A stretch of DNA of 64,000 nucleotides from contig OX597815.1 of assembly GCA_951406725.2 (NCBI GenBank), positions 77,810,001 through 77,874,000 on the forward strand. The letters are read 5' to 3'. The position numbers and the translations under genes were made by a program. Positions 25,255 through 38,260 of this stretch are shown here, one piece after another. The notes under the pieces were generated by a model, which did not search any database, had not been told where the DNA came from, and was given only the letters and a program-made list of their open reading frames with translations. How positions within the stretch are numbered: position 1 is the stretch's first letter; every line of letters begins with the position of its first letter. This DNA is from Octopus vulgaris (lineage: Eukaryota).

Positions 25255-25593
25255 AATGGTTTGGTGAGAGGAAAGGCATCCAGTTGTAAAAAAGAAAAAA
25301 ATCTTTTTTTCTCAAGTGACATATATAGCAATAAAAACTGCCATTTTTCCATTACTGTTGCTGTGTATGACAAAAGGTGAGGTGCTGTGAAACCTGTACA
25401 ACTCATCTCTGCATAGAAAAATAGGTGTAAAACGATGACGACAATACTACTGAGGATGATGGTGGTGGTGGTGGTGGTAGTGGTGGTGGTGGTGGTGACA
25501 GTGATGATAACGATGTTGGTAGTGTTGATGATGATGATGACAACGATGATGATGATGATGGAGGTGGTGGTAATGATGATTGTTTCAATATAC

Positions 25594-25855
25594 CTCGTGT
25601 CTGTACCACTAAGATTCATTAATAAACCTGTTACTGTAAAAGTGCTGCTAACAATGACACTATTTCTAAACAAAGACAGTATGGTCATATATTTAACCTC
25701 TTTGACTATCAGTCTCTCCTGGATCAGCTCAAATTTGACACCGAACAACAGCATTGTATTATAATTCTTCTGCAAATTTTTGGTTTCACCTATTGAATGA
25801 AGAGCAGATATAGACTGCGTCATTTCATTCTTATTGCAGTGCATCACAATCTCTG
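25594..25855 (-). CDS. Candidate coding exon of a nested antisense gene
   Basis: Strong pyrimidine tract ttttcttcttttctttcttggttcCAG|CAG and donor GAG|GTATAT. Only one frame is open over the 262 nt (EIVMHCNKNEM...LLMNLSGTDTR), phase 1 to phase 2. The sequence is unique within the window. Confidence 0.5.
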
Positions 25856-29933: not shown

Positions 29934-32021
29934 TATATATATATATATATATATATAAATAAAGGCTATCAAGCTGAAACTTCAAAGTCATTGTCACCCC
30001 TGTTCTTGTACAAAGTATAATAAACTTTTACTCCACAAAATGCATTATGTAACTATTCAGTTTAGTATTAGATTGTTTTTATCATAAACTCACCATGAAA
30101 GCACACAAGGCATCGCTGTGTGGTAAGAAGCTTGCTTCCCAACTTCATAGTTCTGGGTTCAGCCCCACTATGTGGCACTTTAGGCAAGTGGCTTCTGCTG
30201 TAGCCTCAGGCCAACCAAAGCCTTGTGAATAGATTTGATAGATGGAAACTGAAAGAAACCTGCCATGCATGTGTGTGTGTGTGTGCATATGTATGTACGT
30301 TTGTGTGTGTATGTATTTATGAGTTTGTGTCTGTATTTGTCCACCACCGCCATTGCTTGACAACCGATGCTTGTGTGTTTATGTCCCTGTAACTTATTGG
30401 GTCAGCAAAAATGTCTGATAGAATAAGAACTAGGCTTATGAAGAATAAGTCCTGGGGGTTGATTTCTTTCACTAAAATCCTTTAAGGTGGTGCTCCAACA
30501 TAGCTACAGTCAAATGACTGAAACAAGTAAAAGAATGTGTGTGTGTGTGAGTGTGTGTGTGTGTTCACATGTATACACATGTGTATGTGCCTGTGGGAAT
30601 GTTAACATTTGATGCCTCTCTGCAAAAATCTCTGAGAAATGGGTAGTGACTAATTCCTGGTTAGCATAGTGTTGGGTAGCTTTACACTTTCGAAGACAAT
30701 TAAAATGAAGCATCTCTTACTTGAAAAACATACATGAAGGGCATCAGGCTGAAAGAACAATACCTTGATAACATGTATTCATCTAACCCATGCTTACGTG
30801 AAAAAAAAAGATCTTCAAAATCGATGTAAAATGAATGAATTCTTTGTAATCTTATTAGAAAATGTTGGAAACCATTTTTATGGAAAGATAAGAGAAATAT
30901 ACAATTGTAGTGAACCATGAACCACCATAAAGGATTAAACAGAACTATGATATATTTATGGCATGATATATATATAAAATTTAGCATGAAGAACAGAGAA
31001 AAAGATAGGATGTATTTTATAACTAACTGATATATTTGGAGCTGAAGTTTGTTGCTGTGCTGTCATTTTAATATCAATGCTTAATCCCTTGGTTGCTAGA
31101 GGCACTGTAGAAGTTATCTAAAAATATCTTTAATGATATTTAGATAGGGTTTTGATAAATAATGTAAGTTTGTGCTGAATAGATTCCAAATAACCTCCTA
31201 AGTCTATTAGCTGCTTAATATTGATTACAGAATCAAAGAGAATACTAATAAAAATACTTCATGTTGTTTATTGTTTGTGACACCCTAGGGATGACAAGTT
31301 TGATGGATAGTATTTTGTATTGACTTCGAATAAGCAGTGTTATTCTGTTTCAGTATATAATCAAGGTAGTATTGTAGCTACCATGTGTTGACATTACTTA
31401 GTGTGTGCAGACAAAGTCTGTGGTTTTCTACTGGCATATTTATTCTATCTTATTAAGTAAAGCACATTATTTTATACATGTCAGTTTAACCAGCTAACAA
31501 ATAAGAAGTACAAGTTTCAGGTGTTGGCTAAGTAAGAACATCCATTTGCAAAATACTTTCTCCAAAACTTCATCCATGCCAGGTGTAAAACATTCAGTAG
31601 GAATAATATACTACTGAATTAAATCACCTTTGTTTTTGTTTTTTGTTTTTACTAAAAGAGTGGGTGGGAATGAAAGTTATTCCTTGCACTAATTAATAGT
31701 ACCATATTAAGCTGGCAGAATCGTTGCCACATTGGAAAAAATGCTTAGCAGTATTTCTTCCAATTTAGTGTTCTGAGTTCAAATTCCACTGAGGTCAACT
31801 TTGCCTTTCATCCTTTTGGGGTTGATAGAATAAGTACCAGTTGAATCTTGGGGGTTGATGTGATTGACTTAACCCCCCCCCCCTGCACAAGTTGCTGACC
31901 TTGTGCCAAAATTTGAAACCAATATTACTATATTTAATTAATATACAGTAAATGAAAACCAGAGCCCAGAAAAATTAGTGGTGATCTGTCCATTTTTTCA
32001 CATCCGTAAAGCACTCAGATT

Positions 32022-32137
32022 TAAACAATAGAAAATAACGAAGGAAAAGAAATAGCAGTTACATCAATATGGTATTATGAGAGCCAATGGTTCTAAAAAT
32101 ACATAACACAGTTAGTAACATGAACAGTTAGTAGACA
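32022..32137 (-). repeat. Inverted duplicate of 36035-36169
   Basis: About 4 substitutions over 116 bp plus one 19-bp indel, counted by eye. Confidence 0.93.
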
Positions 32138-32481
32138 CTTCAAATGTCTTGTGGAAGCAAGAATTTCGAACAAAGCTTTCCATTGAAGGGGGAAAAGTGT
32201 GTGTGTGTGTGTGTGCATGTGTGTGATTTGTTCAAAACATTAGGTTTATTGCCAGCCCATGGCATGTAAATTATCATCATTGTTTTATCTTCCATTTTGT
32301 CATGCTCACATGGGACAGGCAGAATTCATTAAGACAACCTTCACCTGTTTCCAAATAAGGTAACAGATCTCCATGCTCAGACGTATTTTCACAGAAGATT
32401 GGTAATGAAGGACACCATTTTCTTGGTGGTGACACTTACCTATAACTATCACATGATTTCAAGACAAAGAAACACTAAAGT

Positions 32482-32517
<36 letters not shown>

Positions 32518-34442
32518 TGTCTACTAAATACATTCACAAGGCTTTGGTCAGACTGGGGCTGTTGGAGAAGATACTTGCCCAATGTGCTATGCAATGAGAC
32601 TGAACCTGCAACCATGTGGTTGATGAGCAAACTTTTTGACCACACAGCCATGACTTGATGAATGTATAGCTCTACTTTGATTCCCTAACTCCACCTATAA
32701 CTTCTATACTCTATTCTGTTGTTATCCTATTCTTGGAACACTTTCATCATACTCAACAGAAATCAACTTTGGTGTCAAATTAGACAATATGTGCAATGTT
32801 TGTCAATAGATTTGTCATGTTTTTAGCAGGTCAAAACTGATAAGGCTTGAATATATATAGTATTGTTTTTATCATTGTATACATAACAACTTTCAGGACA
32901 CTGAATTAAAAGAGAGCCATTAATTATAGAGTGCAACTGCCAAATGGTCTTAATCAGTGTATGTAGCTGTAACGTGCACTCAATTATATAAATGTTACTG
33001 AAGCTGATATACCACAATGACTGCGATAAGATAGTAATATAAATTAAATCCTTGCAAGATATATTACATTATTACAGTTTCTTCTCAGCTAGACAGACAG
33101 ACATAAATATGTTGACTACTTCACTGTTATTAAGTTGTGAAATTCTCAGGGAAAAACGTATCATTATGTAACAGATCAATCACTGTAGAAACTCTGTTGG
33201 CTTCATCAAATGCACAGTTTAATAACAAACACTGTCATGTCCATTATCATACATTACAACATTATTTCAATGTATGTGTGCCCATGTTGGATAGATCAGT
33301 TATATAAGCATAGAAGCACTCTTCTTGTTACAGTGTCATCTCATCTGTGAGACTCAACATTTTGTAGCTATGCATACCACATCTTCCTGTAACATCTTTA
33401 ACTCTTTAGTATTCAGATTTACTTCAGCAAATGTATCATCATCATCATCATTTAACATCTGTCTTCCATGCTGGTATGGGTTGGACAGTTTGACAGGAGC
33501 TGGCCAGGTAGAAGACTACCCCAGACTACTGTGTCTCTTTTGACATAGTTTTTATGGCTGGATGCCCTTCCTAACACCAACCATCCTGTAGAGTGGACCG
33601 AGTGCTTTTTACGTGGCACCAGCACAAGTGAGGTCTGTTTGGCATGGTTTTAACAGCTGGATGCCCTTCCAAATGCTAACCACTTTACAGTGTGGACTGG
33701 ATGCTGTTTACATGGCACTAGCATTGGCAGGGTTACCGAATAACTTGCAAAACAAGGAATTTTGAAAGGAGAGGGGCATGTAATGCTTATTTATTCACAT
33801 TGTTTTGAGTTAATCATAAATCATCTTGTAGCTTCAAGATTTCGATGACATGATTGTTCATTTTTTAGACTGACATTGCAGAATAGGTGTGAGAGGTCAG
33901 ATCTGACCCATTTGAATATTAAGCTGGCAGAATATTTTGGCTGGATATGGCTGGTTTAAATGTTAAAGAGTTATTTCTGCCCACATCACAACTTCACATA
34001 ATATCTTTGTACTTGATCTTAATTATGTTTTCCCATATCATTATATCAATTTGCACCACATCTTCCCAAGACTTCATTGGTTAGATACTGCTAAGGTATG
34101 TATCTTCAGTTGTTACATTGTTGCACATTTCTACCAAACAGGTTCTGTCCCTTCACATTACATCTACTAATCTAACCACCTCTCCTACACCATACAACTG
34201 ATCAAACCACTGTGGGAAGCACCTATGTACTTGCCAAACTTACTAGAAATACCAGCCAAATGTACCTCAGATCGCACCCTATCATGATGAAAAGAGAAAG
34301 GACACAGTGAATACAATAGTCCTGGATATAGAAATGGATGGAATGGACAAGACTCAGCCTCATCCCTCTATCCCTCCAGTTCTCACAACTTGGATGCTCT
34401 GCTGGATCTAGAGTGTGAGGCTGAGAAGGTGTTTGTACTTAC

Positions 34443-34542: not shown

Positions 34543-36034
34543 CTGTGGAAAGTTTATTTAAAATTTTCAGATTCCAATATATTAGACATCCTTCTACTCT
34601 TTCATATCTCCACCATATTTAGATATAAAATTTCTCTCTGTATTTTAGATTACCTTCATTACAGTACTTCCTTAGATATTTTAATATATCCACATGCTTC
34701 AGTATAGAATTTCTGTCTATATTTTAGAATTACCATATGTTTAGATATAATATTTAATTATATCATTTTATAGTTATCATTTCATTTCAAGCATTTTCGC
34801 ATCCATGCTGTTGTTGTTGTTTAACCCTGATTATCTCATTGCTAAAAGGCTAGGTCATGGTCATCAGTTCAATGCTAATTTTTCCATGCTTGTGTGAGTC
34901 TGATGAAATTTATTGAGGCAAATTTTCTACAGTCAGATTTTCTACCATTCTTGTCACCAACCATCACTTGTTTCCAAGCAAAGTAATATTTCCCCAATAC
35001 CAGATACATTTGCACTGAATATTGAAGATGAATGACACTATGTATGACATTGACACTCATTTACACCTGTCACTCAATGACAAGGTAAGGAAGCAAATCC
35101 ACTTATAAGACTTTGGTTGACCCAGGACTGAAGTAGAAGACTCTTGTTGAAGGTACCACACAGTGGGACTGAACCTGAAACCATGTGTTTGGGAAGCAAA
35201 CTTCCTCACCACACCTACAAGCCACATCTGCATCTAAGAACTCATTAGTCAATGTATTCTTCTTTATTTAAAAAAAAATGCATTGTGTGATTTGAGAGAA
35301 GTTTAGCTGCTACTTCTAGCAACTTGAGCAACTCTGTCGAGACTCTCACATTGACTCACTTATAGCTATATTTCATTTTGAAATATACTGAAAGAATCAA
35401 ACTGAAATTCTCACATGTTTAGAAATAAATAGATCTGCCTATATACTTCAACACTTTTACTATCTATTTTGGAAAAGATCTCATTCATTTACCTCTTAAT
35501 ATATCAGTGTCTAAAATGAAATTACCCGTTCCACTTGGACATATTCTTGCAGACATTGAATCATTACTCTTGTGAATTTGTGCATATCATCTCTTACAAT
35601 CTGTCTGCTGATTCCCTCTCATTTTCTACTTCTTACTGTCCTTTTCTCTTGTTCTCATTCCCTCCCTTCTTGCCTCTCTCTCTCTCTCTCTCTTTATCTA
35701 TCTATCTTGGTGTGTGTGTTTGTATTATTTATATATACATACATACATACATACATACATACACATATATACATACATATACACACATACATATAAATAT
35801 GTATCTATACATACATACGTACATACATATATACATAGTATGCATACACACACACACACAAACATACACTCACACATATCCTCACATTATTTCTTGTCAT
35901 TCTAAGAAATGTTTCCACTGAACTTTCCACAGAACAAAGCATCATAGTTTGTTATGTAATTGCCTCTAAGCAATATTCAGTTTGGTGTAGTTAAATGTAT
36001 GAATATGAACCTTCTTTTTTATCTTCAACACAAC

Positions 36035-36169
36035 TGTCTACTCACTGTTCATGTTACTAACTGTGTTATGTATTTTTAGAACCAATGGCTCTCATAATAC
36101 CATATTGATGTAACTGCCATTTCTTTTCCTGGCTTCTTTTTCTTTTCCTTCATTATTTTCTATTGTTTA
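36035..36169 (+). repeat. Inverted duplicate of 32022-32137
   Basis: The reverse complement aligns almost perfectly with 32022-32137. Confidence 0.93.
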
Positions 36170-36668
36170 TCTTTTACTTGCTTCAGTGATTGGATTGTGG
36201 CCATCCTGGGGCACCACAATGAAAGTTTTAGTTGAAGAAAAATTGACCTCAGTACTTTTTTTTTTATTGCTATTATGTCTAGTATTTATTTTATCAGTCT
36301 GCTTTGCCAAACTGCATGGTTAATGTTATGGAGATGTAAACAAACCAATACTGGTTCTAAAACACTGGAAGGGAGACAAACACAAAAACATACACCCATA
36401 CACATAATAAATACACACACACACACACACACACATACACATAATAAATACACACACACACACATGTATGCAAATATTATTAGTAAATTATAAATCCAAA
36501 AGAGATGTACACTCAAAGTTATAGAACAGTAGCGTATTTAGATAAAGATTGTTATGGCTGGTTTAAGAGGTTATCCAGAGTTTCACATCTGTGCATTTAA
36601 CCCTTCTCCTTTGTCTGTGTGTTGAACAACTAACCACAAAGCCTTTTCTCCCTCCACTTTGAAGAGAG

Positions 36669-36765
36669 GTTATAGGCCACTGGCCATTAGGGCCTGATGA
36701 GAAGCTGTAAAGCTGAGTGCTTTACAGACATGAAACCCTGGCTAACCCCATAGACCAGTCATAAC
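36669..36765 (+). ncRNA. Degenerate type-I hammerhead ribozyme motif (Penelope pLTR-like)
   Basis: CTGATGA (36694-36700), a 9-bp stem II ctgtaaagc/gctttacag, and GAAAC (36732). The flanks gttat..actgg..ggg and ccc..ccagtcataac can pair as stem I. Confidence 0.55.
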
Positions 36766-36894
36766 TTTTTTTTTTTAAATTTTCATTTCCAGATTTCCAA
36801 TTCTGATATTGAGGGTTAAGCTAAAATTTTTCTATATTTATGGAGAAATTTGTCTGCAATTTAATTAAAATTTGGGCTGTTTGTTTAGAAGTTG

Positions 36895-38260
36895 CTCTAC
36901 TATATTTAATAATGATATCAAAGTTACTATATTTATTGCTCATATCAATCTTTCTATGTTGAAGTGCTGATATCAAAATTGTAATATTTGATGTGGATAT
37001 CGAAATTTCTGTTTAATGATGATATAAAAATTGTTATATTTTATGCTGATAATAAAAAAAAAAATGCTGCAGCCAACAAAGACGTCAAAAATAAAGCATG
37101 ATGTATAGAATTTTGTGTCTTATAGATTCTTAATTAACCAAAATTTCCCTATTTGTTGGAGAAAGAAAATAAACACCTAGTGGAAGTTGTTAGTAACTCA
37201 AAGAAAAGGGGAGATAATTTAAAGTATTTCAAATTTAATTTCTAAGCTTACTCTATGTTTACAAAAATGACAGTCTGATCTTTGTATGCAGACGAAAGAC
37301 ATATGTTTCAACCTATTTTGACTTTATAAGTATAGAATACTTACATGATGGGATAAATTTGTGAATATAGAATAAAAGGATAACAAATATTTTTAACAAG
37401 AATAATTTGTAAAGTTTTAAAAAAAATGATTTAAGGGAGAAAACTCATAAAAGCCAAATTCATGAATTTGAATAGTTAAGTTAAAAGATGGTGAACTTAG
37501 CTTTTAATTGGAGAAAGAAAAGAAACACATAGTGGCAGTTGTCACCAATTCAAAGAAAAGGGGAAATAATTTGAAGAAATTAGGAATTAATTTCTAAATT
37601 TACATGCTTAGGGTAACATGAATGTCATCTTTATTTAGAGTGAAAGCTTATTTATAAAAAAGTTCTTTAGCTCAGTCATGAGCAAACTTCAGCCCGTGAG
37701 ACTTTCTAAATGGCACACCTAATGAAAAATTACCTTGTATTTTTAGTAGTGTAGCCTGCTTTATGATGAGCCATGTTTCATTCAACCTCTATCAAAAATA
37801 AAATTAAAAAATGGAAGTTGACTATACCTGCTTTAGCTCATTTTATTTTTATTCTCTTTCATCCTTTTAGAGTTGACAAAATAAGTACCAACTGGGTTGA
37901 TGTAACTGACTAGCCTCTCCTCTGCCACCAAAATTCAGGCCTTGTACCTATAGTAGAAGGGATTTTCATGCTATCTGATGTTGATATCAAAGTTACTATA
38001 TCTAATTTTGATATCAAAATTATGATATGGAATGTTGATATTAAAGTTGCTGTTGCTAATTGTGATACCAAAGTTACTATATCTAATGTTGTTATCAAAG
38101 AAGCTATATCTTATGGTGATATCAAAGCTATTGTATTTAATGCTTATACTAGAGTTAGTATATTTAATGGTGATATAAAAGTTGCTTTGTTTTAATGGTA
38201 GTACCAAACTTTTATATCTGCTAAATTCTGATATCAAAGTTGATATATTTTATAATGATA
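36895..38260. repeat. 27-bp minisatellite (consensus ~GATATCAAAGTTACTATATCTAATGTT) in two blocks, 36895-37050 and 37971-38260, split by an insertion
   Basis: Successive units gatatcaaagttactatatctaatttt / gatatcaaaattatgatatggaatgtt / gatattaaagttgctgttgctaattgt and so on. Confidence 0.85.

What the first reader, a model, noticed from the sequence alone, without database searches (positions are those of the whole stretch)
36669..36765. Hammerhead ribozyme relic in an unannotated Penelope-like terminal repeat
Seen: an intact CTGATGA box, a perfect 9-bp stem II, GAAAC, and flanks able to form a long stem I. A second partial copy (31995-32018, minus strand, ctgagtgctttacggatgtgaaa) suggests an ancestral ...ACGGACGC-GAAA eroded by CpG decay. 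Known: Penelope-like elements and retrozymes carry minimal type-I hammerheads in their terminal repeats. Inference: a non-autonomous HHR-bearing retroelement family with no ORF here, possibly producing small self-cleaved or circular RNAs from intact copies elsewhere.
Basis: partly seen in the sequence, partly recalled or inferred. Interest (0 to 1): 0.72.

Follow-up and report, generated by a model that had tools for sequence, protein, structure and literature searches.

The report
Decayed hammerhead of old Penelope retrotransposon
This is a real but decayed hammerhead-ribozyme motif at the cut-short end of an old, once protein-coding Penelope-like jumping gene of the already described Hydra group, one of many such copies in this likely octopus genome; it is ordinary, and this copy is predicted not to cut RNA.

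Summary
The motif is real: CTGATGA at 36694, a 9-bp stem II and GAAA at 36732 (1 descriptor hit in the window, 0 in 200 shuffles). It is the 3' end of a dispersed family (at least 150 covariance-model hits). Longer copies carry broken reverse transcriptase and GIY-YIG coding sequence directly upstream, with the DKT, CxCX5C and CxxC/CxH motifs of Hydra-clade Penelope-like elements. The published Hydra-1_Obim has the same hammerhead layout. So the family was autonomous, not ORF-less; this copy is just 5'-truncated (36590-36777) and joined to an inverted, tailed 3' end (about 36474-36589), the textbook layout. The family majority has a full core, a palindromic stem III and a GUA site. This copy has lost one stem I and one stem III pair. 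Core positions decay at about the neutral rate, and covariation among copies is not above shuffles. The 'second copy' is part of a local inverted duplication. The scan has found this kind of element on other DNA before. Side find: a young sister family with intact ORFs, full-length tandem arrays and 2,650 hammerheads with a U4C core. Verdict: new member of a known kind, low interest.

The parts
36474..36589 (-). Inverted 3' end of the element: starts in the 3' arm of stem II, includes GAAA, stem III, the 3' arm of stem I and the ~60-nt 'tail'; abuts a (CA)n/(TA)n tract
   Evidence: alignment to natural copies L017 and L037; family hits from 36474; tail probe hit in L001
36590..36777 (+). 5'-truncated forward copy (3' UTR/pLTR of a Hydra-clade PLE); last ~10 bases eroded to a T run; no coding sequence
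   Evidence: alignment to L037 starts at 36590; no tblastn hit of the sister-family protein in the window below E 1.9
36669..36693 (+). Stem I 5' arm (distal part 36669-36688; core-proximal GGGC 36690-36693, last base mismatched)
36694..36701 (+). Core box CTGATGA plus the extra unpaired nucleotide typical of metazoan PLE hammerheads
   Evidence: extra nucleotide G/A/T by subfamily; PMC4209133
36702..36731 (+). Stem II: 9 perfect pairs here; 12 pairs with one bulge in the family majority
36732..36744 (+). GAAA, stem III (family majority palindrome ACCC-W-GGGT, broken here at 36742) and predicted cut site after 36744
   Evidence: self-duplex energy -3.5 here against -11.6 and -12.1 kcal/mol in L030 and L003
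36745..36765 (+). Stem I 3' arm
31996..32140 (-). Local inverted duplicate: copy of 36032-36167 joined to a copy of 36708-36735; not an independent hammerhead
   Evidence: (I11); shares the rare TGAG loop (3 of 78 rows) with the forward copy

Best explanation
The motif is the hammerhead of a 5'-truncated, partly inverted, mutation-eroded copy of a once protein-coding Hydra-clade Penelope-like retrotransposon, and this copy is predicted to be inactive. Shown: family membership, coding remnants in longer copies, the inverted-plus-forward layout, two fixed 3' ends about 60 nt apart, and near-neutral decay. Inferred mechanism: the element's protein nicked a TA/CA microsatellite and copied the element RNA from two internal start sites downstream of the uncut hammerhead, giving one long (tailed) and one short end; both products stopped early and were joined back to back. 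In active ancestors the hammerhead likely cut slowly, as a dimer through its palindromic stem III or with help from the element's protein, to process tandem transcripts. After insertion it decayed.
For: 43 DNA matches among 40 scored of 421 candidates; 150 of 150 scored hits with model R1; 57 exact matches of a 24-base stem III/stem I motif, control 0. Overlap walk window to L019 to L043 to L064 reaches RT motifs; L062 and L073 hold RT, endonuclease and hammerhead in order. Motifs match Hydra diagnostics and, by eye, the Hydra-1_Obim protein and 5' end. Hydra hammerheads in the supplement mostly have a 4+1+4 palindromic stem III and an extra base after the core. 48 long and 71 short ends among 119 copies; the tail is also the 5' end of full-length copy L067, fitting the two internal RT starts in PMC11167929. 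Core changes 62 observed against 70 expected in 65 rows.
Against: Pfam gave no match for any of three proteins tried, so domain names rest on motifs and by-eye comparison. No tree with reference PLEs was built. All 11 invariant core positions are intact in this copy (true for 29 of 78 rows), so weak activity is not excluded. The model and alignments were built from top-scoring copies, which biases divergence low. No cleavage or expression data.
Confidence: 0.92

Rival explanations
1. A non-autonomous retrozyme or mini-element family that makes small circular RNAs.
For: Most copies are short: in the first 30 loci shared sequence covers only a few hundred bases. A few loci hold two direct copies close together (L100, 248 bases apart; L025). 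Animal retrozymes are proposed PLE derivatives (passages).
Against: 5' ends are ragged and run into the endonuclease and RT remnants; no fixed short unit or array of short units was seen in the fetched loci; no young copies.
Confidence: 0.04
2. This copy has been kept by the host as a working ribozyme or RNA hairpin.
For: Core intact, perfect 9-bp stem II, z = -3.89.
Against: Two core-adjacent pairs are broken and the hammerhead fold is not populated; the copy is 12.5% from the majority, within the family range; the perfect stem is explained by CpG decay on both arms of a minor variant (inference).
Confidence: 0.03
3. Chance match to a short motif.
For: Eight loose CTGANGA...GAAA matches occur in the window; Rfam finds nothing; RNAalifold finds no consensus fold.
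Against: 0 hits in 200 shuffles; family majority pairs in all three stems, 82% of cells paired against 26-41% for slid controls; same layout and position as published Hydra hammerheads.
Confidence: 0.01

Closest known systems
Hydra clade of C-terminal-endonuclease Penelope-like elements, nearest Hydra-1_Obim of Octopus bimaculoides (Craig et al. 2021, PMC8557442; seen: passages, section 11, supplement parts 2, 52, 53 and search hits)
   Same: Domain order, DKT, RWK, CxCX5C, CxxC/CxH, TA targets, inverted 5'-truncated copy, tail, hammerhead with extra base, A-U first pair of stem II and 4+1+4 palindromic stem III; similar RT and 5' end (by eye).
   Different: Hammerhead and 3' UTR sequence differ; stem II is 12 bp with a bulge (7 bp in Hydra-1_Obim); stem I is extended; an Asn/Ser-rich stretch in the endonuclease is about 200-360 nt longer than in the young sister family (from block spacing); the family is old and no intact ORF was seen.
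Minimal hammerheads of metazoan PLEs (Cervera and de la Pena 2014, PMC4209133; parts 1-2 of 4 read)
   Same: Long helix II, short helix I, unpaired base 5' of stem II, palindromic stem III predicted to need a dimer; mostly single motifs in truncated copies, some on opposite strands 100-700 bp apart.
   Different: First stem II pair is A-U, not the usual G-C; this copy has two broken pairs.
PAc Poseidon element of Anolis (Frangieh et al. 2024, PMC11167929; parts 1-2 of 4 read)
   Same: Two fixed 3' ends defining a tail, downstream of an uncut hammerhead; AT-rich targets.
   Different: Different clade; there the hammerhead overlaps the ORF start and was tested (protein-assisted, not needed for insertion in vitro); nothing was tested here.
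Animal non-LTR retrozymes (PMC7229834, listing only; bioRxiv 10.64898/2026.07.22.740005, passages)
   Same: Type I hammerhead, link to PLE terminal repeats.
   Different: No short tandem ORF-less unit here; copies are truncations of a coding element.

Membership tests
Type I hammerhead ribozyme | Core CUGANGA, GAAA and UH | tested here: met
   11 of 11 positions and H = A in the window copy
Type I hammerhead ribozyme | Three stems closed around the core in this copy | tested here: not met
   stem I 3 of 4, stem III 3 of 4 pairs; fold not populated. Met by the family majority and by 12 of 78 rows
Type I hammerhead ribozyme | Covariation in stems | tested here: inconclusive
   score 0.170 against 0.163 shuffled, 31 of 500 shuffles as high; one stem I pair is G-C in 56 and A-U in 8 rows, partly one subfamily event; RNAalifold empty
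Type I hammerhead ribozyme | Match to an Rfam hammerhead model | tested here: not met
   none at E up to 10
Type I hammerhead ribozyme | Self-cleavage | not testable with these tools
   needs a bench assay
Hydra-clade PLE | Single ORF, RT then C-terminal GIY-YIG | tested here: met
   collinear remnants in L062, L063, L068, L073; absent from the window copy; Pfam silent
Hydra-clade PLE | DKT in place of DKG; RWK motif | tested here: met
   DKT in L062 and L095; RWK in L095 (older subfamily), broken in L067
Hydra-clade PLE | CxCX5C linker; CxxC and CxH around E and N in place of CCHH | tested here: met
   translations of natural copies
Hydra-clade PLE | (TA)n targets, tail, inverted 5'-truncated copy | tested here: met
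   34 of 71 short ends followed at once by TA/CA runs, 48 of 119 tailed; inverted pairs
Hydra-clade PLE | Placement in an RT phylogeny | not tested
   reference sequences were seen only in the supplement and could not be loaded
Hydra-1_Obim (same family) | Same 3' UTR and hammerhead sequence | tested here: not met
   by-eye comparison: same layout, different sequence
Non-LTR retrozyme | Short ORF-less unit of fixed length, often tandem | tested here: not met
   ragged 5' ends continuous with coding remnants

The most novel reading that the evidence does not exclude
Octopus Hydra elements keep a deliberately weak, dimer- or protein-gated hammerhead that cuts tandem transcripts into unit RNAs which are circularised and copied round. 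The young sister family found here (intact 708-aa ORF, arrays of four or more near-identical 2,589-bp units, 2,650 hammerheads with a U4C core against 42 canonical) would be the live system that shows it, and the window motif its fossil cousin.
Probability: 0.2. Interest if true: 0.55.

Novelty: new member of a known kind. Interest (0 to 1): 0.14.

Why it matters
The finding itself matters little: hammerheads at the ends of Hydra-clade Penelope elements are published, including for an octopus, and this copy is a decayed fragment. What the hammerhead does in Penelope elements is still open (PMC8557442, PMC11167929). An old family with no intact copy is a poor tool for that. The young sister family seen in passing, with intact ORFs and a variant core, would be a better one.

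Tried and rejected
Rfam scans of the window and of 36600-36800: no hammerhead. Pfam on three proteins: no family. RNAalifold on 78 copies: no consensus structure. Idea that the A/T split at the centre of stem III (39 A, 34 T) is hypermutation or favours heterodimers: rejected, it is linked to the extra base after the core (p = 9e-6), so it marks subfamilies. 36032-36460 as part of the repeat: rejected; 36032-36140 has no family hits and the rest is another common repeat (a SINE, by recall) and microsatellite. Sequencing-run search with the young family: no RNA holder listed; no evidence on expression either way. Laying four contig sets on 36470-36895: paralogous copies only, no contig spans the locus, so no orthologue test was possible. 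No earlier finding matched this sequence. Five paper searches listed no paper on this particular family; Repbase and Dfam were not available, and the supplements of PMC13282606 and of the bioRxiv preprint were not seen and may already hold it.

Full report
Observation. The core boxes, the 9-bp stem II and the distal stem I arms are at the stated place. A post-hoc descriptor hits once in the window and never in 200 shuffles. The best fold is stable (z = -3.89) but is not the hammerhead fold, and Rfam reports no hammerhead. The window is G000:C2:77810001-77874000 of a 2.8-Gb genome; the host is likely an octopus (inference from likeness to Hydra-1_Obim).

Family. The 131-base query gave 43 matches among 40 scored of 421 candidates, at 81-89% identity apart from the self match. 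A covariance model gave 150 of 150 scored hits, and a 24-base motif occurs 57 times exactly, control 0. At about 12% divergence per base that suggests around a thousand copies (my arithmetic). Of 118 profile hits in the loci then held, 88 were near-full-length and distinct; I left out 10 with large gaps or poor alignment and aligned 78. They differ from the majority by 16% on average and 6% at least; these are top-scoring copies, so the true figure is higher. The majority has the full core, an extra base after it, a 12-bp bulged stem II, the palindrome ACCC-W-GGGT, a GUA site and a 4-bp proximal stem I. 29 of 78 rows keep the whole core; 12 of 78 also keep stems I and III.

Autonomy. Walking upstream reached broken endonuclease and RT coding sequence. 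L062 and L073 hold RT, endonuclease and hammerhead in order. DKT, RWK, CxCX5C and CxxC/CxH are the Hydra-clade diagnostics of PMC8557442 (section 11). Its supplement lists Hydra-1_Obim and its hammerhead; by eye the RT and 5' end are close, the 3' UTR is different. Against this: Pfam matched nothing and no tree was built. No intact ORF of this family appeared: among the 150 scored hits, those of 50% identity or more had open frames of at most 326 aa, except one of 634 aa (L102, which belongs to the young sister family).

Anatomy of the window copy. 36590-36777 is a forward 3' end; about 36474-36589 is an inverted 3' end with the tail. Across 119 distinct copies, 48 end with the ~60-nt tail and 71 before it; 34 of the 71 run straight into TA/CA repeats. 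The tail is also the first sequence of full-length copy L067. PMC11167929 shows for another PLE that the tail lies between two internal RT start sites, that uncut RNA is the main template, and that its hammerhead cuts only with protein. Both ends here lie downstream of the predicted cut site, which fits copying of uncut or rejoined RNA (inference).

Decay. The window copy differs from the majority at 13 positions within the motif, among them 36693 and 36742, which break the pairs next to the core in stems I and III; its stem III self-duplex is -3.5 against about -12 kcal/mol in two intact copies. In 65 main-subfamily rows (13 older-subfamily rows left out) core positions changed 62 times against 70 expected; in the 32 rows found by longer queries 34 against 41. 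CpG cells changed at 35%, others at 11%. The structure is 82% paired against 26-41% for slid controls, but covariation is not above shuffles and RNAalifold finds no fold, as expected for copies that decay after insertion. The A/T at the centre of stem III tracks subfamilies.

Second copy. 32140-31996 is an inverted duplicate of 36032-36167 joined to 36708-36735.

Known and new. It works like the minimal PLE hammerheads of PMC4209133, which cut weakly and only as dimers in vitro. It files under the Hydra clade as a sister of Hydra-1_Obim, not under retrozymes. Earlier notes of this scan reached the same reading on other DNA; I treat them as leads only.

Side find. The RT search exposed a young sister family: a 708-aa ORF, head-to-tail units of 2,588-2,590 bases at over 99% identity in L096 and L097, and a hammerhead-shaped motif with CCGA(A/T)GA in 12 of 12 motifs seen, 2,650 exact matches against 42 with the canonical T. 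PMC3088659 (passages) says a U4C variant lowers activity in vitro yet supports viroid infectivity. No RNA holder was listed for it.

Verdict. Observation confirmed, interpretation partly supported, new member of a known kind, interest 0.14.

Noticed in passing
L096 1-9901, L097, L102-L104 (G000:C3:37228000-37237900 and others): Young Hydra-clade family with an intact 708-aa ORF, full-length head-to-tail arrays (period 2,588-2,590) and a hammerhead with a U4C core: 2,650 exact matches against 42 canonical. A canonical CUGANGA search misses it.
   Followed up: partly
window 31996-32140 and 36032-36735: Inverted duplicate 3.9 kb away that joins non-family DNA to a piece of the hammerhead with about 540 bases missing; may mark a local inversion or templated insertion.
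   Followed up: partly
L062, L063, L068, L073, L099, L069: An Asn/Ser-rich low-complexity stretch inside the GIY-YIG domain, about 200-360 nt longer than in the young family.
   Followed up: no
L084, L090, L093, L095, L099, L101: Older subfamily with T as the extra base after the core and, in several rows, an A-U for G-C change in stem I.
   Followed up: partly
L012 856-1371 (-), L025 1129-1554 (+): A reading frame runs into the hammerhead and stops at the TGA of the core box; may be chance in decayed copies.
   Followed up: no
window 36898-37051 and 37972-38183: Two degenerate arrays of a 27-bp unit just downstream of the element.
   Followed up: no
window, many places (e.g. 36166-36400, 32495-32661, 33418-33760): Several dispersed short repeat families next to microsatellites, likely octopus SINEs (label recalled).
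   Followed up: no
window 25460-25630: Weak, below-threshold C/D snoRNA matches on a TGG repeat; likely chance.
   Followed up: no
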